Positions 1,341-14,535 of a DNA stretch of 14,726 bases are shown here, piece after piece. Every line of letters starts with the position of its first letter. Within the stretch, counting starts at the first letter, position 1. The position numbers and the translations under genes are program-made. Source of the DNA: a virus (Duplodnaviria; Heunggongvirae; Uroviricota; Caudoviricetes). The stretch lies in the IMG/VR virus record IMGVR_UViG_2534681663_000009; one strand, given 5' to 3'. The notes under the pieces were generated by a model. That model searched no databases, had not been told where the DNA came from, and saw only the letters and a program-made list of their open reading frames with translations.

Positions 1341-4300
1341 TTAGCCACTTAACATTCCCCCATCACGTCGCATATTTAACAGATTGCCCTGCACCCGCTG
1401 ATCAACCATCCCCATAAGTGCTTTTATTGCCTGAGGGCCAATCTCTCCATTCTGGCCGTCATTTTGAATAGTGATTTGGTATACAGGGGCATAGGTAATA
1501 TCTCCGCCTCCATTACCACTTTTACTATTAATAGCTCTGACACCAAGAGAACCATCGGAAGTTCGTGTTAATGGCATAATGGCTTCCGGTCCAGCCTCAC
1601 CAAAAACACCAGCCCCTTTTGCAAAAGCAAAAAATTGCGGGGAATCATAAATACCGTTCGAATACGTGCTCAATGACGGAGACTCATAAACACCGCCCTT
1701 TGCATTCGGAATAAATTTACTAATAGCACTCCCGATAGTTCCTAAAATCCCCCCAGAAGAACTGTTACTAATGCTGTCGAAAATCCCAGTAATTGAAGCC
1801 TTTAATGCTATTCGACTAAGATCCGAAATCACGGAAGTAGCGAAAGAACGAAAATTTGCCTTGCCTGTCGTGACAAAATCACCCAGCGCATCGGTCATCC
1901 CATCAAACATCTGAGTCGTGGTTGATTTTATCTGCTCACTGATATCCTTAGTGTCATCCAGCCAGTTATTGAATCCCTGGGAGGCACCACTAACCCAGTC
2001 TCCTGCCTGAATATCGAGCTGCTCGTTTTTCTGTCTGACAATTTCTTTTTCCCGTTCCAGAGCATCATTCAGAGCCTGCATTTTCTCTTGAAAAACATGA
2101 TCTGACATTCCACGGGATTTATCTGCATAGTCACGTTCAAGTTGCAGACGCTGATTGTTATATCCATGTTCAATCCGCAGTAATTCCTGCTGGCGTTGCT
2201 GATTTTTATCGCCAACCCCATAACCAGCAATCTGAATATCATACCCCTGCTGACGATTATCAATCGAAGCCTGCAATGAATCACGCCATGCTGTTATTTC
2301 GGCGGATTCCTTGATTAGCCTGTTATTTTTTTCAATCGCAACATTTTTCTCCATCAACGTGGTTATTTCTTCCCGGTGTAAGAGAAGCGATTTCTGATCC
2401 TGGGTTAATTTCGATGATGGTCGTGACTCTAGGTCGGCAATCCGCTGACGCCACTTAACCAGTTCCTGTTCAGAGGAACTTAATTTAACGGTCAACTCAG
2501 CTTGTGAACTTAGTAACGCATTCTGTTGATTCAGATGATCAATCATTCGTTGGGCTGCATCATCAGAATAATCTTTCGCCTTTGGTTGCTTTGGATCTTT
2601 ATAACGCTCATTTATTTGAGCGATAAGATTATTATATTCTTCCTTTGAATACTGATTCTTTAGCTTTTCCAGTTTTGCAAGTTCACTAGCTCTCTGCTGC
2701 TCCCGGGTCTGATATTGTTTTGAAAAGGCATCTGCTCTCTGTCTGAGTTCAATTCCTTCCTGTTGTCGCTTGTTGTAATCGTTTATTGATGAATTTAGTA
2801 CGTCCTGAGCAATTTTTTCTGCTTGAAGTACGCCCAATTGCTGCTTTAATCGTGCCAGCCTTTTATTTTGAGCTCCGCCATCTCCAATGCCACCTAACCC
2901 GAAAACTCCGGATCGGGTATTTTTTTCTATTTCATCAATTTGACGGAGAACATCTGAGATTTTTTGATCAAGGGAGGCCTCACGGCCAATATCCAGCATG
3001 GAATCCCATGCCCATTTTGCGGAGTCTGCGACAGCTTTCCATGCAGTCTCAAGATAACCAAGATTTTCTTTAATCTGGTTGGTGCGCTGGATCATTGAGG
3101 ATGAGTATTCTTCTGTCGCAATGCGGGCGGCCTCCTGCTGGTTCCCTTCATCCTGTAGCGCCTTAATCTGGTTATAAGTCGCAAGTGTCAGAAAATGGTA
3201 CTGATCATTAAGTTTTGATATGGCACTGACAGGATCCTTTGCAATTTCATTGAAGTCATTAACCAGTTGTTCGGTTGATATTCCTGTTACTTCGCTCGTT
3301 TTTACTATCGCTGTCGTCACTTGCTCCAGCGAACTGCTCGCTACCTTTCCCGAACGCACAAGCTGATTTAATACTGCCGCCGCAGCACCAGTTGTCGAAT
3401 CAGCCGCATTCCCGGCACGTTGAGCTAAATCGCCCAATTGCCCGCTGGTTGTCCCCAACTGATTTCCGGTAAGAATAAGAGATTTATTAAATTCGTCCTG
3501 CTCCTGAGAGCCTTTATAGTAAGCCAGTCCTAAGACCCCAACGGCTGCTGCGGCCAGGGTAAAAGGATTAATTAATCCCAGCACATAAGAACCTACCCCT
3601 TTGATCGCCGGGCCAATCCCACCGAACATATCTTTTAGCTGGCCGCCCTGCTGCATTAACACCATAAATGGCGACTGACCAGTGGACAACCCAACAACAA
3701 TATCCGTCATTTGTGCAGGCAACATGCGCATAGCAAAAGCCGTTTGTTTTGCCGACATTCCGGTTTTGCTTAATTGTGATTGAGTAACCTCAAGCTCACT
3801 CCGCATAGCACGAAGTTTTCCAGAAAGCTCCTCATACATTTCAGGAGAAAGCATCCCCTTAGCTTTTGCTTCATTGAGCTGTTTCTGTTGTTCTACCAGA
3901 CGATTAAAAGCAGTTCCGACAGGATCAAGTTGAGCAATCAGACGTTGCAAAGCAACAACCTGTTCATCATGCGCTTTTGCTGCTTCTCGCTCTGCCTGAG
4001 CCTCTCCGGTAAGCTCTCGCCGTGTTTCCTGTATTTTTCGGCTATAATTCTCAAACTGAGAACCATTTATTTTCCCGGATGCAAACGCAGCATTAAGTTC
4101 ATCATGCTGTTGTTCAAGATTTCTTAGCGCCGCAGCCAGAGGGTCGATCTTGTCCAGCATTCTTTGAAAGGCCTGAGCCTGCGCTTCCTGCTGGGCGGCA
4201 GCAAGTTTTCCGGCCTTCTCGGCTTCTCTCTGCGCTTGCGCAACCCCGCTCAATTCCTCTGTGGTTTCATTAAGTTTACGGACAAGAAATTCATATTCTT

Positions 4301-4574
4301 CTTTATCAATAAGCCCTTTATCGAAAAATTTCTTTAATTCAGAATAGCGTCGACCGACAGTATCAATTGCGGCACCAACTGGATCAATAGCTGCTTTTAA
4401 TTTTGCGAGCGCGTTCTTCTCATCTTCTGTTGCCTTAGTCACTTTCCCTGCGCTATTTGCAGCAGTTTCCCCAGCCTGCGTCATTTTGACTAATGAGGAG
4501 GTCAGATTGTCAGCATTATTTTTCGCTCCAGTGCTATCAATAATTATTGCGAGACGCGAGGTTTGCTCTGCCAT
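1341..4574 (-). CDS. Tail tape measure protein (1077 aa; lambda gpH-like C-terminal region)
   Basis: Largest ORF, between the tail chaperone and M; N-terminal coiled-coil region with three tandem ~75-aa repeats, central hydrophobic segments (…FMVLMQQGG…VGVLGLAYY), C-terminal motif [13 protein letters not shown]; ATG at 4574 with AGGAG about 9 nt upstream. Confidence 0.93.
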
Positions 4575-4594: not shown

Positions 4595-4620
4595 AAAAAA
4601 CCCACCGCGAAGTGGGTTTC
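4595..4620 (-). terminator. Rho-independent terminator-like hairpin plus U tract in the spacer between the T-frame stop and the tape measure start
   Basis: Minus-strand RNA: AAACCCAC-UUCGCG-GUGGGUUU followed by UUUUUUG; stem of 5-8 bp. Lies 15-20 nt upstream of the tape measure SD. Confidence 0.5.
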
Positions 4621-4739
4621 AGGCGACATAATAGTAGATATAGCGATTACGAGGCCACGCAATGCTTTTCTCCAGGAGCATCATCGATTTAATTAAAGAC
4701 ACCATCACATCTCTGTAACAGAGTGTACGTAATTAACAA

Positions 4740-5509
4740 CTACACACACTGCTCCTGAAAATACTGGTCATCCAGTGCAAAGATCACTGCTTCAAATTCA
4801 TCGCGCTCAATCAATACCGGATGAGTGGCTAAATATTCATTTATCTCTGTCAGAGATAAAGGCAAAGGCACCCCAGCCATTCCAGCATAACGTCGGGCAC
4901 GGGATATTACCGAATAGGCGTACAACAACTCCTTAAGCACCGGGTCTATTTCTGGTTCCGGTATCGGTGGCAACCTGAGTTTTTCTCGCTTCCATCTTGC
5001 CTTTTCCCCCCTTTCTCCCCCGAACTCCGATAACCACCGCTGGGCAGCTATGGCTTTTTTATCGTATCCTGCTTCTGCTGCTCTTTACCCTGGGCGATGC
5101 TGGCTGCTTCTGCAAGGATCTGCCAGTACAACTCTGGATTCTGCTTAAGCAGCGCGATCCCTCGTTCTGCCGTATATTCCAGTGCAACCTCAACACCATT
5201 AACCAGTTCACCAACCCCTTTCCAGTCTTTCAGCAGATAACGAGCGGCATTATCAATGAGTAAATCATCAACAGAATCCACCTCGGAAACCTTTGAAATA
5301 TCAAACTCCTTCGTTCCGACGTGCAAACTGGCATCCATTTTCTCAATGTGGCGACGGATTAATGCATTACGGGAGCGATACTGATCGTTATCGCTGCTTG
5401 CCACCAACAGTTTTAACCCGTCTACAGGTTTTAAGTCCTTCATTGGCGTAAACCAGCGTTCTCCACCAATGATAATTTTCTGATTAAGAATAAACATCCA
5501 TAACCTCAT
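4740..5509 (-). CDS. Tail assembly chaperone frameshift fusion (gpGT analogue) made by -1 programmed ribosomal frameshifting
   Basis: The -1 frame is open from 5084 down to the stop at 4740-4742 and overlaps the end of the G frame; the only slippery heptamer in the overlap is A_AAA_AAG at 5060..5054 (minus). Predicted fusion is about 255 aa. The ORF track shows the downstream part as a 77-aa ORF with an artificial TTG start. Confidence 0.65.
5048..5509 (-). CDS. Tail assembly chaperone (lambda gpG analogue), zero-frame product
   Basis: 153-aa acidic ORF immediately downstream of the major tail gene and upstream of the tape measure; ends two codons after an A_AAA_AAG heptamer. Start could be ATG 5509 or ATG 5497 (the latter has GAGG about 8 nt upstream). 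Confidence 0.75.
   Translation of the reverse strand: MRLWMFILNQKIIIGGERWFTPMKDLKPVDGLKLLVASSDNDQYRSRNALIRRHIEKMDASLHVGTKEFDISKVSEVDSVDDLLIDNAARYLLKDWKGVGELVNGVEVALEYTAERGIALLKQNPELYWQILAEAASIAQGKEQQKQDTIKKP
5054..5060 (-). other. -1 slippery heptanucleotide A_AAA_AAG (X_XXY_YYZ in the G frame)
   Basis: Plus strand 5054-5060 is ctttttt; on the minus strand the G frame reads ATA AAA AAG CCA TAG, so the heptamer is A AAA AAG two codons before the G stop. Confidence 0.6.
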
Positions 5510-5557: not shown

Positions 5558-6520
5558 TCAACTAATCGCCTCAGCACTGGCTTTTGCGATCACGGCAGCC
5601 GGGGAATTTTTTTTTCTGGTTATCGTAGGTGCTTCATCTGCTGCGGTAATGCTCAATTGAACCTGGATAATGTCGCTATTACCCCCATCAGGCCATTCAC
5701 CTGACACCTGAACCTTCGGGAAACTGAAAGTGTATGCCCCCTCTCCATTCGAAAGCGTGAAGCTGAACGGAACTGTTTCTCCAGTCAGTGTTTTACTCCA
5801 GATTTCCCACGCGGCTTTAGACCATGAAAGCGTCACCGTACCGGACGGTGTAAAAGTAGTCGGAATATTTGCTCCTGCATAAGGCGAGCCAGTCCCGATA
5901 CAACGCTGTGTCTGGAGTTTGTTATCGAACTGAATATCAAAACTGTCGATACAAAAACCGTTACCTCCGGCAACACCATTCAGGCTTACTGCTGAAACCT
6001 CCTTAAACGAATAACGTAGCTTTCCTGCACTATCCACAGGTTCGCCTTTGATAAAATTCGTATCATCGGCCTTTGATTCCCAGTCCAGTCCGGCAAAGGT
6101 TACGGTCGCTGTAATATCGCCGTCGTTAGGGATCTGCATTTTCCATGAGCCAACCTGCGCTCCTCTGACGACAGAGGCAATTCCGACATCGGACGCATAG
6201 GTCGCCAGAGAAAATGTTATTCGCTCATTCCCCATTGTCAGAGAATCGCCTGACCATTCCGCGCCGAAACAGGATGCAAGAAAATCATCATGTTGACCCC
6301 AGCGAAATTTGGTACCAACATCACCGCCGACATCCACAGTGCCAGGCGTCGCCCCCTGAGCCATCCGGGAGCCACCAATCTCATTATTTTCGCCTTTATT
6401 CTGGGTGGGTTTTACTCCCCAGCTTGTGCGTTTTAATAAACTCCAGTCACCACTTGCTGGCGTAGTGCCTGCAACCGTCTCCCGGATAAATGCCGAGATA
6501 ACCTTTGCACCTGAACTCAC
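5558..6520 (-). CDS. Major tail (tube) protein
   Basis: 320-aa ORF between the neck genes and the G/GT chaperone pair; GTG start at 6520 with AGGAGG 6 nt upstream; Thr/Ser/Gly-rich beta-type composition typical of siphovirus tube proteins. Confidence 0.78.
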   Translation of the reverse strand: MSSGAKVISAFIRETVAGTTPASGDWSLLKRTSWGVKPTQNKGENNEIGGSRMAQGATPGTVDVGGDVGTKFRWGQHDDFLASCFGAEWSGDSLTMGNERITFSLATYASDVGIASVVRGAQVGSWKMQIPNDGDITATVTFAGLDWESKADDTNFIKGEPVDSAGKLRYSFKEVSAVSLNGVAGGNGFCIDSFDIQFDNKLQTQRCIGTGSPYAGANIPTTFTPSGTVTLSWSKAAWEIWSKTLTGETVPFSFTLSNGEGAYTFSFPKVQVSGEWPDGGNSDIIQVQLSITAADEAPTITRKKNSPAAVIAKASAEAIS

Positions 6521-6546: not shown

Positions 6547-6939
6547 CTAGAGCGCGCGATATGGAATTTGAAGATTAAGCTGGAACCAGCCATTCTTTTC
6601 GCCAACGGCTATTGAGGAAACAGCCTGGTAACTGAGACGATCGTCATCCTGAAACTCAAACAGTTCCCGCAATTTATCGGCTGTCTCAGTAATGAGTTTT
6701 GAACCAGAACCTGCGGGGACAAATAACTGAATAATGATTATCCCCGTGCGATAAACAATCGGCCCCGCGCCAATTTCATTAACTCCAGCCTGCCCGGGAA
6801 TATTACTTAACCGCGCCCAGATTAACTTACCGGAAGGATCGAACGTTGGCGCGTTCGGATACAATACGTCTTTTCCATCAATAATCGTCTGTGCCGTCAT
6901 TCTGGAAATAACCGTATTTCTGATTTCAGTAAACGTCAT
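6547..6939 (-). CDS. Tail terminator / tail completion protein (gpU-position protein)
   Basis: 130-aa ORF immediately upstream of the major tail gene; ATGA overlap with the preceding gene stop (6936-6939). Function assigned from synteny only. Confidence 0.55.
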   Translation of the reverse strand: MTFTEIRNTVISRMTAQTIIDGKDVLYPNAPTFDPSGKLIWARLSNIPGQAGVNEIGAGPIVYRTGIIIIQLFVPAGSGSKLITETADKLRELFEFQDDDRLSYQAVSSIAVGEKNGWFQLNLQIPYRAL

Positions 6940-8284: not shown

Positions 8285-8307
8285 ATTAAAAATGGGGCCG
8301 AAGCCCC
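8285..8307 (-). terminator. Rho-independent terminator-like hairpin immediately downstream of the major capsid gene
   Basis: Minus-strand RNA: GGGGC-UUCG-GCCCC followed by AUUUUUAAU; begins about 10 nt after the capsid TAA stop (8318-8320). Confidence 0.5.
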
Positions 8308-8317
8308 GTTTGAATGT

Positions 8318-9457
8318 TTAACCAAGAATCAGACAACCATGTGCCGGCTTCACTGATGAAACACCCCATGCCAGTCCAACTTCATAGCGCACCTGGCGAT
8401 ACTGACGATACAGTGCAATCTGGAACGTAATCCCTGAAATCGGGTCCGTAACATTCATTACATCATCAGCATTATCGCCACCTTCCGGCATTGCCGGAGT
8501 ACGGGATGCCAGCAGAAACGCGTTGCGATCAAACGCCATATTTGCCGTAAAGGCCCCAACAACTGTGATGGCAGTATCATCGGCCAGATCCTGACGCAGT
8601 CCGGGCGCTGCAAGAGTAATCAGATTGCTGGTCGCTGCTGCCACAACATACTGATTCGGATCACCAGCGAACGTAACAATCTGACCTGCAGAAATACTCC
8701 CCGAACCAGTATCAATGGAAATAAGAACATCGCCTTCTTTTTTCTCTCCATTCACGAGATAACCAGTTGCAGCAACCTTTGGCGCTCGTTTCACACCTGC
8801 CGAACTGTGAATATTGAATCCCTCCAGACGCCCCAACACGCCCTCACGCAGTAGCTGTTCAGTGCCGGATTCATTCACTTTAAACAATACAGACTGTTTT
8901 CCGCGCAAATTAGCAATGGCAGTGGAGCCAAGCACCATCTGCAGATCGGTTGTCGGTGCGCCGTTATCCTCCAGAACCTGACGAGCCAGAGCAGCATCAG
9001 AAAGATCATCTTTAACACCAAACGGCGTTGTCCCTGCGGTTCCCACGGCGCGGGAAGCACCGAAATACAACGCACCAAGATCAGCCTCAACCTCGTTTGC
9101 AAGGGCGCGAAAAGCCTGCTTGAACTGATCAGCCAGAATGGTGTTGTAAGTCCCTGAAGGGCCAAGAGCCAGTTGTTCTTCACCATTCCATTTAACCGGT
9201 GCCATTTTGGATTTAGTAATTTTTACATCAACAGTGCCAATATTTTGATCACCGGTATTCGGAGCTGACGGCCCCGGTACGATATCTTCGGTTTTCGCCT
9301 CAGGCGCAACTGGCGCGGTTACCGTCTGATCTTTTGCTGCGGCGTCAGCTTTTACGTTTTTTGCTACCGCAGGGATAAAACCTACCTGCTCACGGGATAC
9401 AACATCCAGGGCGGTATAAATAGTCGGGATCAACCCGGTCAGGGTATTTCCAGCCAT
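8318..9457 (-). CDS. Major capsid protein
   Basis: ORF track gives 410 aa from a TTG at 9550 with no SD; the ATG at 9457..9455 has AAGGAA about 9 nt upstream and gives about 379 aa (MAGNTLTGLIPTIY...). Follows the scaffold gene and precedes the connector genes; size typical of HK97-fold capsid proteins. Confidence 0.78.
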   Translation of the reverse strand: MAGNTLTGLIPTIYTALDVVSREQVGFIPAVAKNVKADAAAKDQTVTAPVAPEAKTEDIVPGPSAPNTGDQNIGTVDVKITKSKMAPVKWNGEEQLALGPSGTYNTILADQFKQAFRALANEVEADLGALYFGASRAVGTAGTTPFGVKDDLSDAALARQVLEDNGAPTTDLQMVLGSTAIANLRGKQSVLFKVNESGTEQLLREGVLGRLEGFNIHSSAGVKRAPKVAATGYLVNGEKKEGDVLISIDTGSGSISAGQIVTFAGDPNQYVVAAATSNLITLAAPGLRQDLADDTAITVVGAFTANMAFDRNAFLLASRTPAMPEGGDNADDVMNVTDPISGITFQIALYRQYRQVRYEVGLAWGVSSVKPAHGCLILG

Positions 9458-9555
9458 AATTAAATATTCCTTAAAAATTTGCGTAATTGTGAATAGATGG
9501 AGTAATGAGCTATCCAGCCCTGACACCAGCTCCCATCCGGAAGCTGACAAATGTG

Positions 9556-10320
9556 TTAATCAACGATTGTGATACCGTCTTTCAATGCGTTTTGCTTACC
9601 TGCAACATCCAGTGCATCAAAAGCAGAGCGTTTCATCGTTTTCTGACCAATATCATGCTGTGTCGGACGGGAGCCGCCGCCATTGTTGCCACTGGCTTTC
9701 AGGATGTAGTCTTTCTGAGGGTAATTTTCGACAAGGAACTCCAGCGCCTCATCAAACTGCGCCAGTTCGCCAGGCTTCGCGCGGGAATAAATTTTGTTGC
9801 CGGAAGCGTCATAAGCAACGATCTTCCCTTCTTCCACTTTGAATGCCTGCCCGAAGCGGGCTTGTAATAAATCTGCCGGGATCGCAATTTTATCGGCAAT
9901 ATATTTTGAACCCGCAAAACTACCGCCAATCATAGAATCGTAAAGCTGCGTCTCCAGCATCTGAGAGCGTTGCTTTTCTTCATCTAATTGCTGCTGAAAA
10001 TTTTTCGTAATTTCTGCCTTAACCTGGTCAACCTGTCCCGCATCGATCAGCTTTTTCTGGTCGATTTTTAACAGCATTTCCAGTGCCTCGATCGCCTTCT
10101 TCGGGTCTTCGATAGCGGCAAACTTAGCCAGTTTTTCCTCTGCAGCTTCTTTAGCCAGGCGATGATTTTTTGCCTCGCCATTAAGCTCTGTAATTTTTTT
10201 TATCGCCAGCGGTGCATCGAAGCCGATTTCTTTACCATCGTCGTGCACATAAACTGGCAGGCCAGCAGTATCAATTTCTGCGTATTGTTTTCCGTTAATC
10301 TCGACCGTTTTCAGTTTCAT
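9556..10320 (-). CDS. Capsid scaffolding protein
   Basis: Track ORF starts at a GTG (10392) that lies inside a terminator hairpin; the first ATG at 10320..10318 gives about 254 aa (MKLKTVEINGKQY...). Charged, helical, Lys/Glu/Ala-rich; sits between the head morphogenesis and capsid genes. Confidence 0.6.
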   Translation of the reverse strand: MKLKTVEINGKQYAEIDTAGLPVYVHDDGKEIGFDAPLAIKKITELNGEAKNHRLAKEAAEEKLAKFAAIEDPKKAIEALEMLLKIDQKKLIDAGQVDQVKAEITKNFQQQLDEEKQRSQMLETQLYDSMIGGSFAGSKYIADKIAIPADLLQARFGQAFKVEEGKIVAYDASGNKIYSRAKPGELAQFDEALEFLVENYPQKDYILKASGNNGGGSRPTQHDIGQKTMKRSAFDALDVAGKQNALKDGITIVD

Positions 10321-10380
10321 ATTAGTACCTGGTTTAAGTCTTCCGACAGTTACGCTGCTCACCATCCGGATCGCAGCAAT

Positions 10381-10404
10381 AAAAAAGGCCACCCGAAGGT
10401 AGCC
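10381..10404 (-). terminator. Rho-independent terminator-like hairpin between the head morphogenesis and scaffold genes
   Basis: Minus-strand RNA: GGCUACC-UUCG-GGUGGCC (7-bp stem with one G-U pair, UUCG tetraloop) followed by UUUUUUAUUG; about 20 nt after the upstream gene stop (10425-10427). Confidence 0.55.
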
Positions 10405-10424
10405 TGTTGTAATAAATGATTTAT

Positions 10425-11540
10425 TTAAATCCCTGCTTTTCTGAATACCTGTGCATCACGCTCACGGAGTTGCTTCAGCGTCAGCCATTCGCCTTTATCG
10501 GTGTAAAATTCATCTGGCGACATACCGCCATCCCGAATCAGCTTTGCCCGGGTTTCCCCCACAATCTGTTTTTGTCTGGTGTAAGGCTGACGCAAAAACC
10601 ATTCCCTGTAGGTTGTATCTCCGGCCACCACGCCATCCATGCTGGCCCGCTCAGCCGGGGAAATATCACGAACATCAATACCCAGTTCCTTCGCTGATTT
10701 CAGAATGAACGTTTCCGTTGAGCGGCAGCAGAAATGAATTTTTCCCGGCCCATGCAAATAAGGCACACTGTGACCTACAGGTTTATTATCCAGCGTATAT
10801 TTGAGGAGATCCCTGATTCGACATTGTGGCGTAGTACGATTATCAAGCGTTGATAACCATTGCTTACCCTTAATCAAATCATTATTCGCGCTGGCAAAAC
10901 TCTCACGGGCAGTAGCAGCAAGATGTCCAACCGCTGTTTTTGCAATGCTGGCCGCATTAGCCCGGCTCATCTGCAATGCACCATCCTGAAATCCCTTGCT
11001 GACATGTCCCCGAATTTTTCTTGCGATCTGCTCATTGGTATCCCCCAGCAAAAAACCCTGACGCACCGTATTTGTTATGCGTCTGAGCCGATCCGCCTCA
11101 AGATCCAAGGCCCACTCACTGAGCAGTCGTCCCTGGAATGGTCGCGCCATTGCAGCGGCGTAAAGTGCATCAGAAGATATACCAACCAGAGGGTGAACAT
11201 CAGCAACAAAATCAGGTAGCAGAGAATCAAACAGACTTAACTGATAACCAGCCTCATAAATTGCCAGCTCGTTCAGCTCTCCGGAGAGACTGGTAAACAT
11301 GCTGTTAATAGCAGCGCGGTTAACCTCTCTGACACTCGCCAGAAGTGACTCCAGGCGCGTAACGGTAAAACTACCAGGATCGAGGCTGTCCAGTGCTACC
11401 AGCAGGCGAGCTGTAAGCTCCGCATCGCTGTCATTCAGTATTTTCACCATTCTGGCAGCCACACCAGTGCTATAGCGGGATATCCAGACTGCATGAGCAA
11501 TTGATTCATCACGCAGCCGTTCATTCACGGTTTGCATCAT
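10425..11540 (-). CDS. Head morphogenesis protein (Mu F-like / SPP1 gp7 family)
   Basis: 371-aa ORF directly after the portal gene, overlapping it by about 20 nt; contains an H-x-C-C-R-S motif (GKIHFCCRST) resembling the conserved HxNCRC signature of Mu F-like proteins. Confidence 0.75.
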   Translation of the reverse strand: MMQTVNERLRDESIAHAVWISRYSTGVAARMVKILNDSDAELTARLLVALDSLDPGSFTVTRLESLLASVREVNRAAINSMFTSLSGELNELAIYEAGYQLSLFDSLLPDFVADVHPLVGISSDALYAAAMARPFQGRLLSEWALDLEADRLRRITNTVRQGFLLGDTNEQIARKIRGHVSKGFQDGALQMSRANAASIAKTAVGHLAATARESFASANNDLIKGKQWLSTLDNRTTPQCRIRDLLKYTLDNKPVGHSVPYLHGPGKIHFCCRSTETFILKSAKELGIDVRDISPAERASMDGVVAGDTTYREWFLRQPYTRQKQIVGETRAKLIRDGGMSPDEFYTDKGEWLTLKQLRERDAQVFRKAGI

Positions 11541-12927
11541 TGATTTCCATCAACATTACACTCTGATTTTTTAATTCATCGATCACATCCTCTGGACGGG
11601 AATCCTGATCGATAAATTTCAACGCCTGCAACACCCGAACCGCATCAATCTGACGTATATCACCGCCCTGACGCAATGACTGAACAGCCAGCGCGGAGGA
11701 TGAGTCAAACACCTGGGCAGATACATCCAGTTCAGTGCGCACATCCACATTGCCACCGCAACTCTCTCCGCTCCATTCCGCCATTATCTGGAGAATATTA
11801 TCGAGGGCATCTTCGAGGGAGTTCGCCATTGTATAAAGCGGCGAGTGTTCCTGCATCCGCTCTTCATTAGTCTGATCAACAGATTTGGTGGATGTATTTT
11901 CAGCCCGCAGAAGTTTAGCGCCGGCATGACGCATCTGATTTTCCAGCTTCTCAAGTGATGTTTCGCCAGATTCTATCGCTGCGCCACTATGTTCAACATA
12001 TTCGAGGCCATTTTTTGTTCTGTCCTCAAAAATCGTAGCCGTGGATGCACCAACCGTCAGTTCTTCATTCCTGTCCAGCCCGTAGGCCACCAGCAATGGA
12101 ACGCGGGCAACATGAAGAATATTGTCCTGCTCGCTCTGGCTTTGCCAGTGCTTGATATTCAGCAAGCCAAGATTAAGCAATGGCGGTGTACCACGCATAA
12201 ACCCTGTTTTCTTCGTATACAGTGTTACCAGAGGAATATCATCACGGCTGGTATTCCATGACTCATGAAGCATCCAGACAGATTCGCCATTAGTACCTTC
12301 GCTGCGTCGATAAATTTCTACTCGACGGGGCATAATATGGCGGATCTGCTCCACCTTCTTCTGCCCGAAATCATCACCATCAATAATGATGACCTCTTTT
12401 ATACGCAAATCAGTGAGAACAACTTTCCCTTTTTCAACTTTCGATTTCCATCCAATAACCTGGCGTGGATTCAGCATCGTAACGTACGGGCGACCACCGG
12501 CCGCGTTTTCATCGGCTTTTGTCCGAATCTCGTTCATATCCGTTCGTGGATAGTCCACCAGCGCATGTGCCACACCATACTGAAATGCGAGACTGAAAAA
12601 TTGCTGCGCCCACACATCCAGTCGGCTCCCCTCCATGTCGATATTTTCTGCATATTCCCTGATTTTTTCCGGCGTTTCCTCACTCAATACTGTCGGCTCT
12701 GCAAATATGCGCCCAATATTTTGTTTGATGCTTTCTTCATACACAGGAAGTAACGTAGCCACAGACAGGCGTTTTTTATAAGCGTCTTCATCTTCATTAG
12801 GCCATTTGGGGAGATAATTTTCCCCCTGCCTGCGCATTTCAAGCGTACCGCCCATCAATGCGTCGTTAATATCCCACGCCTCCAGCATATCGTTATAGTC
12901 GAGGTTGGGTGTTGATATATCAGCCAT
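11521..12927 (-). CDS. Portal protein
   Basis: 468-aa ORF immediately downstream of terL (TAA-TT-ATG junction at 12925-12932); size and position typical of portal proteins. Confidence 0.85.
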   Translation of the reverse strand: MADISTPNLDYNDMLEAWDINDALMGGTLEMRRQGENYLPKWPNEDEDAYKKRLSVATLLPVYEESIKQNIGRIFAEPTVLSEETPEKIREYAENIDMEGSRLDVWAQQFFSLAFQYGVAHALVDYPRTDMNEIRTKADENAAGGRPYVTMLNPRQVIGWKSKVEKGKVVLTDLRIKEVIIIDGDDFGQKKVEQIRHIMPRRVEIYRRSEGTNGESVWMLHESWNTSRDDIPLVTLYTKKTGFMRGTPPLLNLGLLNIKHWQSQSEQDNILHVARVPLLVAYGLDRNEELTVGASTATIFEDRTKNGLEYVEHSGAAIESGETSLEKLENQMRHAGAKLLRAENTSTKSVDQTNEERMQEHSPLYTMANSLEDALDNILQIMAEWSGESCGGNVDVRTELDVSAQVFDSSSALAVQSLRQGGDIRQIDAVRVLQALKFIDQDSRPEDVIDELKNQSVMLMEINDANRE

Positions 12928-12929
12928 AA

Positions 12930-14231
12930 TTAAATCCGAAGTGATGTGACTCTTCCGGTCGGTTTGACAATAGGGAATTGCTTAACGATGAAATAACCTC
13001 CGGCATCATTCGGGTGATCATTGCCAGATTTTTTATCAGGCTCCCCCTTATCATCCCAGACCTGTTGCTCCAGAGATTCGGCATATACCGGACAACGCTT
13101 CACATTAACTTTATAGCGACGCTCACCATTGGCATTGCAGAACATTGCATTCATTGAGTTAACGCGATCTTTTACTGGCGGGTTCGAGCTGTTCACCACA
13201 ACGTTAAAACCTGCCTGCTTAAGCTGGGCTATATCCGTCGTACTTGCGTTACTTGATTTTCTGGAATCTCCGGAAGCATCTGGATAAATATAAATCTCCC
13301 TCACTTTCCGGTAATCATGCCCGTCATACAGCCAGAAGCGTTCTTTAATGAGGCGGATCATATCCGGCGTATCGTAGGCATTGATGATTTCAGTTACCGC
13401 ACATGGAAGCCCCAAACGCAGCACATGGACGATTCCCGCCATCTTTCCAACGTTAAAATCCATCCCAATATAAATCGGCTCCCCTGGCTGCTCCACTTCT
13501 TCGCAATTATTCAGTTTCCGGTCAAACTGATGGTAAACAGTACCACTTGTCAGGTTAGTAAACCGTCCTAGAAGATAGGCTTTAATCAGCTCTGGAGGGT
13601 ATGATTCAAGAAGTGAAGGAATGTAATCTGCTGGCAGGTTCTTTTCATTATCGAAAGTAGATGCCTGCACCAGACCATACAGTGAGGCCAGCTCTGTTTT
13701 TTCACGCACGGCTTTAACAAACTGCTCGTAGACAAATTTGAATCCTTCCGGCGTGGTTGTAACGTCAATACCGTTGCGAAGTCCATCAATCTTATAACGC
13801 ATACGCGCAATTATCTTGCGCCACGCCGTTCTGGCTTTTTCCTTCGGCAAAATGTCCAGTTCATCCACCAGCGCATTACCAATTTTGAAACCGACGATCG
13901 TTTGTGGCTTCTCCATCGATCTGCAGATAGTGGTTCCCCGATACTGGCGTCCGTAATAAAAGTGAACCTCTTTATTTCCCTCATTAATTTTTACGTTCAA
14001 TCCCCAGTCAGCAGCAACTTCTTCCACTGTAGGGTAAAAAATATCGCGAATTTGGGGATACGTTGGCGCAAAATATCCCTGATTTATACCTGGATGCTCC
14101 CAAATCCCCTTGCATATGCCGCCACACCCAACCCATGTTTTGCCCGAGCCAAAACCAGCAATATAGGCTTTAAATTTATGGGGCATTGAAAGAAATCGCG
14201 CCTGAGGCACATTAAGCGTCGGAGAGATCAT
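12930..14231 (-). CDS. Terminase large subunit
   Basis: Walker A P-loop AGFGSGKTW near the N-terminus; C-terminal acidic nuclease-type motifs (YIYPDASGDS, GNDHPNDAGG); ATG at 14231 is best placed relative to AAGGAG (8-nt spacer), with alternative starts at GTG 14240 and ATG 14237. Confidence 0.9.
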   Translation of the reverse strand: MISPTLNVPQARFLSMPHKFKAYIAGFGSGKTWVGCGGICKGIWEHPGINQGYFAPTYPQIRDIFYPTVEEVAADWGLNVKINEGNKEVHFYYGRQYRGTTICRSMEKPQTIVGFKIGNALVDELDILPKEKARTAWRKIIARMRYKIDGLRNGIDVTTTPEGFKFVYEQFVKAVREKTELASLYGLVQASTFDNEKNLPADYIPSLLESYPPELIKAYLLGRFTNLTSGTVYHQFDRKLNNCEEVEQPGEPIYIGMDFNVGKMAGIVHVLRLGLPCAVTEIINAYDTPDMIRLIKERFWLYDGHDYRKVREIYIYPDASGDSRKSSNASTTDIAQLKQAGFNVVVNSSNPPVKDRVNSMNAMFCNANGERRYKVNVKRCPVYAESLEQQVWDDKGEPDKKSGNDHPNDAGGYFIVKQFPIVKPTGRVTSLRI

Positions 14232-14535
14232 CTTCATCACTCCTTAATCTGGCATCAACCACATTAATATTGATCGCCACAGGCTGGGGATGTTCATTAT
14301 CCTCCACCGTTTCGATCTCTTTGCGCAGCTTCTGGTTCTCTATTCTGCGCCGTTCAATTTCCAGTTCCTGTAGCCGCTTATCTGCACATAATGCCCCGCC
14401 AGCAGAAAGCAAACGCAACAATTCACGCCGGGCGGCAGCCTTATCCTCCAGCAGGATCTCAACACCGTATTTTCCGAGCTTTGACCCTGCATATAATTGC
14501 CGCGCATCCCCATCAAGCAGTGTGGTATCAGCCAT
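14212..14535 (-). CDS. Putative terminase small subunit
   Basis: 107-aa ORF overlapping the terL start by about 20 nt; coiled-coil centre and acidic C-terminus; first gene of the module. Assigned by synteny only; no HTH motif recognised. Confidence 0.5.
   Translation of the reverse strand: MADTTLLDGDARQLYAGSKLGKYGVEILLEDKAAARRELLRLLSAGGALCADKRLQELEIERRRIENQKLRKEIETVEDNEHPQPVAININVVDARLRSDEDDLSDA

What the first reader, a model, noticed from the sequence alone, without database searches (positions are those of the whole stretch)
10381..10404. Canonical intrinsic terminator embedded in the head operon between the head morphogenesis and scaffold genes
GGCUACC-UUCG-GGUGGCC followed by U6 is a textbook rho-independent terminator in the sense orientation, inside what should be one late transcript. 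A late operon run by an antiterminator would read through it, so it may serve as insulation from spurious transcription in the lysogen or as a dosage control. It also shows that the GTG start at 10392 given by the ORF track falls inside the stem and cannot be the real scaffold start; ATG 10320 is preferred.
Basis: seen in the sequence. Interest (0 to 1): 0.45.

Follow-up and report, generated by a model that had tools for sequence, protein, structure and literature searches.

The report
Terminator plus conserved scaffold-gene RNA leader
The hairpin is a real, evolutionarily conserved transcription terminator inside a prophage's head-gene operon, and it is joined to an apparently undescribed folded RNA leader (hairpins with GGAU loops) that precedes both the scaffold and the capsid gene.

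Summary
Confirmed. On the gene-sense (-) strand, AGGCUACC-UUCG-GGUGGCCU (10405..10386) plus U6AUU is a canonical intrinsic terminator (T1, -13.8 kcal/mol). It lies 19 nt after the Mu-F-like minor-head gene and 65 nt before the scaffold ATG at 10320.

It is not chance. A hairpin plus U-tract lies upstream of the scaffold gene in 68 of 75 related loci (5% of shuffles), with 59 different stem sequences. Its distance to the ATG is nearly fixed; its distance to the upstream stop codon is not.

ATG 10320 is the real start. GTG 10392 lies in the stem and is not conserved.

The new result is the leader between T1 and the ATG: 2-3 covarying hairpins with GGAU/GGAA tetraloops. A model built without the window finds exactly two copies, 10385..10334 (scaffold leader) and 9556..9505 (capsid leader). 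No Rfam family matches.

The leader appears to leave no room for a promoter, so scaffold and capsid transcription must pass T1. The identical prophage encodes a Q-like antiterminator.

Best reading: T1 admits only antiterminated late transcription into the two most highly expressed head genes, and the leader then controls their mRNAs. Both functions are inferred, not shown.

The parts
10386..10405 (-). T1 hairpin: AGGCUACC / UUCG / GGUGGCCU (8 bp, 5 G-C pairs)
   Evidence: Sequence. MFE -13.8 kcal/mol, z -2.8. Top terminator-like site in the window. Positional equivalents in 68 of 75 loci, with 59 distinct stems.
10378..10386 (-). U-tract UUUUUUAUU. U10386 can also close the stem. The tract doubles as the U-rich 5' flank of the leader motif.
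   Evidence: T-run columns are at least 90% T in 58 aligned leaders. The model consensus starts UUUUUuugg.
10334..10385 (-). Scaffold-gene leader motif (copy 1). It contains HP1 GCUGC-GAU-CC[GGAU]GG-UGA-GCAGC (10377..10354) and HP2 GUC[GGAA]GAC (10347..10338).
   Evidence: Covariance model R1, built without the window, scores 41.3 bits, E 6e-17. The MFE fold gives the same hairpins. Covariation.
10318..10330 (-). Shine-Dalgarno-like AGGU (10330..10327), a 6-nt spacer, and the true scaffold start ATG 10320..10318
   Evidence: AGGUA is conserved at the same distance in the closest leader group.
9556..10320 (-). Scaffold gene (254 aa, DUF6651)
   Evidence: PF20356 E 2e-61, phrog_784, and phrog_206 'head scaffolding protein' E 1.5e-22. 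The AF2 model has an N-terminal small beta domain, long helices and a C-terminal alpha/beta domain.
9505..9556 (-). Capsid-gene leader motif (copy 2). HP1' CAGCUUCC[GGAU]GGGAGCUG (9546..9527, extendable to 9549..9524) and HP2' GGGCU[GGAU]AGCUC (9520..9507).
   Evidence: R1 scores 33.1 bits, E 4e-13. This is the only other significant hit in the window plus the 42-kb prophage locus. Sequence. Present in 29 of 38 relatives that have a long scaffold-capsid spacer.
8318..9457 (-). Major capsid gene (P22-coat-like, 379 aa)
   Evidence: PF11651 and phrog_283 (E 3e-136). PGAP start.
8285..8307 (-). T2: GGGGC-UUCG-GCCCC plus AUUUUUAAU, 10 nt after the capsid stop codon
   Evidence: The hairpin is near-universal in relatives, but only 36 of 70 loci pass the U-tract test. 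The P22 record annotates an analogous stem-loop after its coat gene.
10425..11540 (-). Mu-F / SPP1-gp7-like minor head (head morphogenesis) gene. Its stop codon lies 19 nt upstream of T1.
   Evidence: PF04233, phrog_241 (E 1e-180), TIGR01641.

Best explanation
T1 is a genuine factor-independent terminator, and it forms one conserved cassette with the structured 5' leader of the scaffold gene.

The leader fills the space between T1 and the ATG, leaving no evident room for a promoter. The scaffold and capsid genes can therefore only be transcribed by polymerases that pass T1. In this Rac-like lambdoid prophage those are Q-modified, terminator-resistant polymerases that started at the late promoter.

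T1 therefore works as a gate. It stops unmodified polymerases just before the two head genes whose products a capsid needs in the largest numbers. Such polymerases could come from spurious starts, or from promoters of accessory genes in the terminase-portal-minor-head block, including in the lysogen. Late transcription passes through.

The read-through RNA carries 2-3 GGAU/GGAA-tetraloop hairpins. The same two-hairpin motif recurs in front of the capsid gene. Identical loops on variable stems most likely present sites for an oligomeric RNA-binding factor that sets translation or stability of the scaffold and capsid messages.

Shown: the structure, its conservation, covariation, fixed position, strand specificity, the two copies, and the Q-like gene.
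Inferred: termination in vivo, read-through by Q, the gating role, and protein binding.
For: - Canonical terminator anatomy.
- 68 of 75 loci have it, against 5% of shuffles; 59 distinct stems; strong U-tract in 63 of 68.
- The distance from T1 to the ATG has a median of 79.5 nt and is mostly 60-89 nt. The distance from the upstream stop to T1 ranges from -2 to 463 nt. Long spacers hold one extra small sense ORF. So T1 belongs to the scaffold side of the junction.
- The commonest stop-to-T1 spacing is 17-21 nt (25 of the 41 short spacers). By my own estimate of the ribosome footprint, not a tool result, that is far enough for the hairpin to fold behind a terminating ribosome.
- The leader is structured RNA. 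On a MAFFT alignment, 95% of cells pair (79% in shuffles, 28-57% when slid), 13 of 14 pairs show double changes, and 0 of 500 shuffles reach this. Per-sequence MFE loops are GGAU 96, GGAA 21, AGAA 4.
- There is no conserved upstream ORF in the leader.
- The last hairpin ends 0-19 nt before the ATG in all 58 leaders, and no promoter-like site lies between T1 and the ATG.
- Model R1 gives 109 hits in 507 kb (both strands searched). All are on the sense strand and at the two leader positions. In the window it hits only 10385..10334 and 9556..9505.
- The prophage locus collinear with the window has a Q-like antiterminator, a pR'/tR'-like pair and a series of sense-strand terminator-like sites in the late operon.
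- SPP1 shows the same layout: predicted terminators after gene 7, before scaffold gene 11, and after capsid gene 13 (PMC6316719).
Against: - There are no transcript data, so termination efficiency and read-through are inferred.
- The 7 loci without T1 (mostly alphaproteobacteria, plus one planctomycete and one Gilliamella locus) still carry a leader with GGAU-loop hairpins. T1 is therefore dispensable for leader function.
- A short U-rich patch also precedes the capsid-leader copy, which has no terminator hairpin. Part of the U-tract conservation may therefore belong to the leader motif rather than to termination.
- In about 10 relatives T1 starts 10 nt or less after the upstream stop codon, where a terminating ribosome could mask it.
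- I did not check whether the non-E. coli relatives encode antiterminators.
- The capsid-leader hairpins lie about 45-50 nt from the start codon, so simple ribosome-site occlusion cannot be the whole function of the motif.
Confidence: 0.55

Rival explanations
1. Processing and stability module. The late transcript is cut, for example by RNase E, in the single-stranded U-rich patch between T1 and HP1. A similar cut occurs in the UUU patch before HP1' of the capsid leader. T1 then serves as a 3' protective hairpin for the terminase-portal-minor-head segment. HP1/HP2 become a 5'-terminal stem-loop that stabilises the scaffold and capsid messages, and T2 protects the 3' end. This would give high scaffold and capsid output from one promoter. 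It is compatible with T1 also terminating.
For: - A U-rich single-stranded patch directly precedes HP1 in both leader copies, including the capsid copy that has no terminator.
- The scaffold-capsid segment is bracketed by stable hairpins T1 and T2. T2's hairpin is conserved but its U-tract is weak (36 of 70), as expected of a stabiliser.
- The capsid-leader hairpins sit at the 5' end of the spacer, far from the ribosome-binding site.
- RNase E prefers single-stranded AU-rich sites (PMC4347634).
Against: - A pure stabiliser does not explain near-invariant GGAU loops.
- It does not explain a full-strength U6-7 tract in 63 of 68 loci.
- No cleavage data exist.
Confidence: 0.22
2. Partial terminator used as an attenuator (dosage control). 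A fixed fraction of polymerases stops at T1, which lowers expression of everything downstream relative to terminase, portal and minor head protein.
For: Internal terminators do set ratios in some operons (own knowledge: rpsU-dnaG-rpoD). T1 is a sense-strand terminator inside an operon.
Against: - By general knowledge of capsid stoichiometry, the downstream scaffold and capsid proteins are needed in hundreds of copies per particle, whereas portal and minor head protein are needed in about a dozen or fewer. Attenuation here works against that need.
- The prophage has a Q-like antiterminator and several other sense-strand terminators that must also be read through.
Confidence: 0.08
3. Module-boundary relic. 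T1 is simply the terminator of an accessory-gene (moron) slot between the minor-head gene and the scaffold gene. It is kept by hitch-hiking where the slot is empty, as it is in this window.
For: 21 of 68 loci carry 120-463 nt between the upstream stop codon and T1, and 20 of them hold an extra small sense-strand ORF there, always followed by T1.
Against: - T1 is retained with a strong U-tract and 59 different compensated stems in the 41 loci with an empty slot. This indicates selection rather than decay.
- It keeps a fixed position relative to the leader, not to the upstream gene.
Confidence: 0.08
4. The repeated GGATG elements are DNA sites for a late-gene transcription activator. Under this reading, promoters lie in front of the scaffold and capsid genes, and T1 truly ends the upstream operon.
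For: - The GGATG elements are direct repeats spaced about 22-25 bp apart, and they are strictly oriented.
- This would resolve the dosage paradox.
Against: - The flanks covary to preserve inverted repeats while their sequence changes: 95-98% pairing, for example UA 29 / CG 17 / GC 11 at one pair. That is the signature of a folded single strand, not of a protein-contacted duplex.
- In the scaffold leader the last hairpin ends 0-19 nt from the ATG, leaving no space for a -10 element, a start site and a Shine-Dalgarno sequence.
- No promoter-like site was found there.
Confidence: 0.05

Closest known systems
Terminators inside lambdoid late operons that Q-modified RNA polymerase reads through (tR' and terminators of embedded 'moron' genes)
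   Same: A sense-strand canonical intrinsic terminator sits inside a long late operon. The prophage has a Q-like gene followed by a promoter-like and terminator-like pair. The expected behaviour is to stop unmodified polymerase and pass modified polymerase (own knowledge of lambda Q).
   Different: It is not next to the late promoter and does not follow a moron in this window. It is conserved at one precise place, directly 5' of the scaffold leader, in relatives from several bacterial classes, and it is physically fused to a structured RNA motif.
Bacillus phage SPP1 late gene clusters delimited by predicted terminators (PMC6316719)
   Same: SPP1 has the same gene order. Predicted Rho-independent terminators lie right after gene 7 (the Mu-F family prototype; 4718-4765), upstream of scaffold gene 11 (6780-6824; gene 11 starts at 6917), and right after capsid gene 13 (8775-8815). 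No late promoters were found between them.
   Different: SPP1 is a lytic Gram-positive phage with no sequence relationship here. No GGAU-hairpin leader has been described for it. SPP1 has three more genes between gene 7 and the scaffold gene.
Stem-loop after the major capsid gene of P22, HK97 and lambda
   Same: T2 (8307..8294) occupies the same place. The P22 record annotates a stem-loop at 6102-6119 as 'similar in location to stem-loops in phage HK97 and phage lambda'.
   Different: That feature corresponds to T2, not to T1. P22 has only 13 nt between its portal and scaffold genes, no T1, and no hit to the leader model.
CsrA/RsmA binding sites (GGA in hairpin loops, often several per leader, one at the Shine-Dalgarno sequence)
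   Same: Two or three short hairpins present GGA(U) in the loop. The SELEX consensus RUACARGGAUGU contains GGAUG (PMC4347634). The last hairpin abuts the ribosome-binding site of the scaffold gene.
   Different: The ACA that was 100% conserved in SELEX is absent. The loops are tight tetraloops closed by the flanking C-G or U-A pair rather than hexaloops. The motif also occurs in prophages of Rhizobiales and other hosts that, to my knowledge, lack CsrA. The capsid-leader copy is far from the ribosome-binding site.
P22 scaffolding-protein (gp8) post-transcriptional autoregulation
   Same: This is a precedent for feedback control of scaffold synthesis at the mRNA level (own knowledge: Casjens and co-workers, 1985). 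A multi-hairpin operator in a scaffold leader is what such a circuit would need.
   Different: No operator is defined in P22. The P22 scaffold protein is unrelated in sequence and its gene has no such leader. Binding of this scaffold protein to RNA is untested, and its predicted fold gave no RNA-binding match.
Lambda nut boxB hairpins (N-dependent antitermination)
   Same: Short G+C-rich stems carry purine-rich GNRA-like loops on the nascent RNA of a lambdoid phage. GGAA is a GNRA loop.
   Different: The dominant loop GGAU is not GNRA. I saw no boxA-like element by eye (not formally searched). The hairpins lie downstream of T1 and within ribosome-binding regions. There are two or three per leader, and a second set occurs before the capsid gene.

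Membership tests
Intrinsic (Rho-independent) terminator | G+C-rich stem of about 5-14 bp with a 3-8 nt loop | tested here: met
   8 bp with 5 G-C pairs and a UUCG loop; -13.8 kcal/mol.
Intrinsic (Rho-independent) terminator | U-tract directly after the stem | tested here: met
   U6AUU in the window. At least 5 T in the first 6 positions in 63 of 68 relatives.
Intrinsic (Rho-independent) terminator | Sense orientation, in non-coding RNA, far enough from the upstream stop codon to fold | tested here: met
   It lies 19 nt after the stop codon at 10425-10427. The commonest spacing in relatives is 17-21 nt. GTG 10392 is not a real start.
Intrinsic (Rho-independent) terminator | Structure kept by compensatory change in relatives | tested here: met
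   59 distinct stems in 68 loci. The three alignable pairs all show double changes.
Intrinsic (Rho-independent) terminator | Releases transcripts in vitro or in vivo | not testable with these tools
   Needs Term-seq, a reporter assay or in vitro transcription.
Q-overridden terminator of a lambdoid late operon | A Q-type antiterminator with a late promoter and tR' upstream, on the same strand | tested here: met
   In the collinear prophage locus L001: Q-like gene phrog_753, E 6e-79; promoter-like site 32622..32593 and terminator-like site 32565..32546. This region lies outside the window itself.
Q-overridden terminator of a lambdoid late operon | Read through by Q-modified but not by unmodified polymerase | not testable with these tools
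   Inferred from the apparent lack of promoter room downstream of T1.
Any Rfam family (for the leader motif) | Score at or above the family's gathering threshold | tested here: not met
   No hit at gathering threshold in the window or in 20 diverse loci. The best sub-threshold hits were 19 bits (gathering 37.8) for the L2-Alphaproteobacteria leader and 21.3 bits (gathering 37) for CRISPR-DR12.
CsrA/RsmA binding site | GGA presented in a hairpin loop | tested here: met
   GGA columns are invariant in 58 leaders. Loop counts: GGAU 96, GGAA 21.
CsrA/RsmA binding site | Conserved ACA 5' of GGA (RUACARGGAUGU) | tested here: not met
   The base before GGA is C (53 of 58) or U, and it pairs with the base after the loop. 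There is no ACA. Consensus taken from PMC4347634.
Lambda boxB / nut site | GNRA-like pentaloop on a 5-bp stem with an adjacent boxA, placed upstream of the terminators it overrides | tested here: not met
   The loops are tetraloops, mostly GGAU. No boxA-like element was seen by eye in the alignment (no dedicated search). The first copy lies downstream of T1.

The most novel reading that the evidence does not exclude
The terminator and the GGAU-tetraloop hairpins form a previously undescribed cis-regulatory RNA cassette of a widespread phage head module. It is found in about 15% of complete E. coli genomes, and in Enterobacterales, Pseudomonas, Acinetobacter, Burkholderiales, Rhizobiales and a planctomycete. 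Copies in front of both the scaffold and the capsid gene would serve as operators for a phage-encoded oligomeric RNA-binding factor. The most attractive candidate is free scaffold protein itself. That would supply the missing operator for P22-type scaffold autoregulation and couple capsid synthesis to it.
Probability: 0.2. Interest if true: 0.8.

Novelty: new variant of a known kind. Interest (0 to 1): 0.55.

Why it matters
A terminator inside a Q-driven late operon is ordinary on its own. Three things here are not.

1. It is kept at one exact place across bacterial classes.
2. It is fused to a covarying RNA motif with near-invariant GGAU loops that matches no Rfam family.
3. The motif marks exactly the two genes whose products are needed in the largest numbers.

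How tailed phages obtain the right scaffold, capsid and portal ratios from one transcript is a long-standing question. This cassette offers a concrete mutational target in a prophage carried by roughly one in seven sequenced E. coli. It also corrects a recurrent mis-annotation: in RAST-annotated phage records the scaffold gene is given a GTG start 72 nt too far upstream and is named 'coat protein'.

Tried and rejected
- Chance hairpin: rejected by conservation.
- N-terminal extension from GTG 10392, or a leader peptide: rejected. 24 of 58 leaders lack an ATG after the U-tract, and ORF lengths (2-28 codons) and frames are inconsistent. Homologue lengths and profile starts agree with ATG 10320.
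- Promoter between T1 and the ATG: none found, and no evident room.
- Known RNA family: none in Rfam 15 at gathering threshold in the window or in 20 loci.
- P22 as a model: P22 has neither T1 nor the leader.
- RNA-binding fold in the scaffold protein: the AF2 model (pLDDT 75) gave no PDB fold match (best E 1.7) and no PDB sequence match. This is uninformative.
- Literature searches for a GGAU-tetraloop phage motif, CsrA on prophage capsid mRNAs, and terminators in late operons gave nothing specific. A catalogue of about 10,000 candidate viral structured RNAs (PMC10690425) could contain this motif. I searched only its main text, not its motif lists.
- Whole-window enrichment of single GGAW-loop hairpins: not significant. 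Only the tandem arrangement, or the covariance model, is specific.
- MAFFT could not register the T1 stems or the outer stem of HP1, because their lengths vary. Those rest on per-sequence folds, and the outer HP1 helix pairs in only 72% of cells.

Full report
**Context.** All long ORFs of the window run on the - strand and form a phage structural module:
- terminase large subunit (12930-14240)
- DUF4055 portal (11521-12927)
- Mu-F/SPP1-gp7-like minor head protein (10425-11540)
- DUF6651 protein matching 'head scaffolding protein' (9556-10320)
- P22-coat-like major capsid protein (8318-9457)
- head-completion and tail genes

The 2.2 kb around the finding is at least 95% identical in 818 of 5426 complete E. 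coli genomes, and also in ten phage records. In E. coli CI5 the region is part of a Rac-like lambdoid prophage whose order is nin genes, a Q-like gene, lysis genes, trkG, terminase, then head and tail genes, all on one strand.

**The observation.** On the - strand the sequence reads ...UAA-N19-AGGCUACC-UUCG-GGUGGCCU-UUUUUAUUGCUG.... The hairpin (10405..10386) is the minimum-energy fold at -13.8 kcal/mol, z = -2.8. It is the best terminator-like site in the window. The loose terminator pattern is not enriched in the window as a whole (14 found, 14.2 expected), so I looked for comparative evidence.

**Conservation.**
- I collected 80 loci from one genome per species that encode a relative of the scaffold protein at 43-100% identity. 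They span Enterobacterales, Pseudomonas, Acinetobacter, Burkholderiales, Rhizobiales and a planctomycete.
- A single hairpin of -7 kcal/mol or better followed by a U-tract lies within 160 nt upstream of the scaffold ATG in 68 of 75 analysable loci, against 5% of dinucleotide shuffles.
- The 68 hairpins have 59 different sequences and a mean of -13.7 kcal/mol. 63 have at least 5 T in the first 6 tail positions.
- The distance from the hairpin to the ATG is narrow (median 79.5 nt, mostly 60-89). The distance from the upstream stop codon runs from -2 to 463 nt.
- Where that spacer is long it almost always holds one extra small sense-strand ORF of 47-131 aa. The terminator therefore belongs to the scaffold side of the junction.
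- The seven loci without it are mostly alphaproteobacterial.

**Start codon.**
- The phrog_784 profile begins at residue 25 of the GTG ORF, which is ATG 10320.
- Homologues from many genera are 250-254 aa and start MKLK.
- PGAP uses 10320, while RAST-annotated phage records use GTG 10392.
- The U of that GTG pairs with A10400. In relatives the pair is C-G, which abolishes the GTG.
- AGGU lies 6 nt before ATG 10320.

**The leader.**
- Printing the sequences between the U-tract and the ATG showed that they are not spacers. They contain two or three short G+C-rich hairpins whose stems differ but whose loops are GGAU, less often GGAA or AGAA.
- In a plain MAFFT alignment of 58 leaders the GGA columns are invariant.
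- RNAalifold recovers two of the hairpins with many compensatory changes.
- For 14 hand-listed pairs, 95% of cells pair (79% in column shuffles, 28-57% when partners are slid). 13 pairs show double changes, and 0 of 500 shuffles reach this.
- Independent single-sequence folds give loops GGAU 96 times, GGAA 21 and AGAA 4.
- There is no conserved small ORF.
- In the window the elements are HP1 10377..10354, HP2 10347..10338, then AGGU and the ATG.

**A second copy.**
- The 98-nt spacer between scaffold and capsid genes holds the same pair of hairpins: CAGCUUCC-GGAU-GGGAGCUG and GGGCU-GGAU-AGCUC (9546..9507). So do 29 of 38 relatives with a long spacer there.
- A simple scan for two GGAW-loop hairpins 16-34 nt apart finds 171 on the sense strand and 0 on the antisense strand in 514 kb, with 157 of them in these two leaders.
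- In 1.46 Mb of viral contigs with 10-kb flanks, the same scan finds 123 sense and 2 antisense, with 117 in the two leaders.
- A covariance model built from scaffold leaders with the window left out hits the window only at 10385..10334 (41.3 bits, E 6e-17) and 9556..9505 (33.1 bits, E 4e-13). Nothing else is significant in the 42-kb prophage locus or in 12 kb of P22.
- In 507 kb of related loci (both strands searched) the model gives 109 hits, all on the sense strand and at the two leader positions. Pairing is 98% for the inner HP1 helix and 95.5% for HP2.
- No Rfam family reaches its threshold in the window or in 20 diverse loci.

**What this means for the terminator.**
- In all 58 scaffold leaders the last hairpin ends 0-19 nt before the ATG. 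No promoter-like site lies between T1 and the ATG. Polymerases that express scaffold and capsid must therefore come through T1.
- The collinear prophage encodes a Q-like antiterminator (phrog_753, E 6e-79). It is followed by a promoter-like site, a terminator-like site, and then further sense-strand terminator-like sites before the holin gene, after trkG, at T1, after the capsid gene (T2) and before the tape-measure gene (T3). This is the layout of a late operon transcribed by terminator-resistant polymerase.
- I therefore read T1 as a gate. Unmodified polymerases stop just before the two most demanding genes, and Q-modified ones pass.

**Rivals.**
- The best rival, which is compatible with termination, is processing. 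A U-rich single-stranded patch precedes HP1 in both copies, even where there is no terminator.
- T1 and T2 bracket the scaffold-capsid segment. T2 keeps its hairpin but often loses its U-tract, as a stabiliser would.
- A stabiliser alone, however, does not explain invariant loops.
- The loops resemble CsrA sites (GGA in a hairpin loop; consensus RUACARGGAUGU, PMC4347634). But they lack the ACA, they are tetraloops, and they occur in hosts that to my knowledge lack CsrA.
- DNA-level activator sites are unlikely, because the arms covary while the centre is fixed.

**Comparison with known systems.**
- SPP1 has predicted terminators right after gene 7, before scaffold gene 11 and right after capsid gene 13, with no late promoters found between them (PMC6316719).
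- P22, HK97 and lambda have a stem-loop after the capsid gene (annotation in BK000583). That corresponds to T2.
- The placement of T1 therefore has precedent. The fused GGAU-hairpin leader, and its duplication before the capsid gene, do not have one that I could find.

**Limits.**
- Nothing here shows termination, read-through, cleavage or protein binding.
- The scaffold protein's predicted structure (pLDDT 75: small N-terminal beta domain, long helices, C-terminal alpha/beta domain) matched no solved fold.
- Antiterminators were checked only in the E. coli prophage.

Noticed in passing
window 10334-10385 and 9505-9556 (- strand); L003-L082 at about 2870-2990 and 3707-3912: A conserved two- or three-hairpin RNA motif with GGAU/GGAA tetraloops lies in the leaders of both the scaffold and the capsid gene. 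It is strictly sense-strand, covarying, and has no Rfam match.
   Followed up: yes
window 8285-8307 (- strand): GGGGC-UUCG-GCCCC lies 10 nt after the capsid stop codon (T2). The hairpin is near-universal in relatives, but the U-tract is often degenerate (36 of 70 loci pass). The P22 record annotates an equivalent stem-loop.
   Followed up: partly
window 4597-4620 (- strand): A third canonical sense-strand terminator-like hairpin with a UUCG loop (GAAACCCAC-UUCG-CGGUGGGUUUU plus UUGUUGU) ends 23 nt before the tape-measure start at 4574.
   Followed up: no
L007, L016-L023, L026-L028, L034, L036, L047, L049, L055, L056, L068, L069 (between the upstream stop codon and T1): The gap between the minor-head gene and T1 is an insertion slot. 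It holds one small sense ORF of 47-131 aa in several recurrent families, including a lipoprotein-like ORF in L069. Where the Mu-F gene is about 575-600 codons long (L007, L017, L026, L036), a conserved ORF of about 60 aa follows it, suggesting a toxin/immunity-like pair.
   Followed up: partly
L023 about 2850-2920: Two terminator hairpins with U-tracts lie in tandem directly upstream of the scaffold leader.
   Followed up: no
window 11538-11555 (- strand): A 7-bp hairpin UGUUGAU-GGAA-AUCAAUG at the portal/minor-head gene junction encloses the ATG at 11540. PGAP starts the gene at 11537. It could be chance or a translational-coupling element.
   Followed up: no
L001 32546-32622 and 27845-27868 (- strand): A promoter-like site (AAGACA-18-TATAAT) and a terminator-like site lie just downstream of the Q-like gene, resembling pR'/tR'. 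The trkG gene inserted between the lysis and terminase genes has its own terminator-like hairpin.
   Followed up: partly
phage records ON470614 etc. (L002 6157-6993 and 7026-8138): Deposited phage annotations call the scaffold gene 'coat protein' with the GTG start 72 nt too far upstream. They call the Mu-F-like gene 'NAD+--asparagine ADP-ribosyltransferase'.
   Followed up: partly
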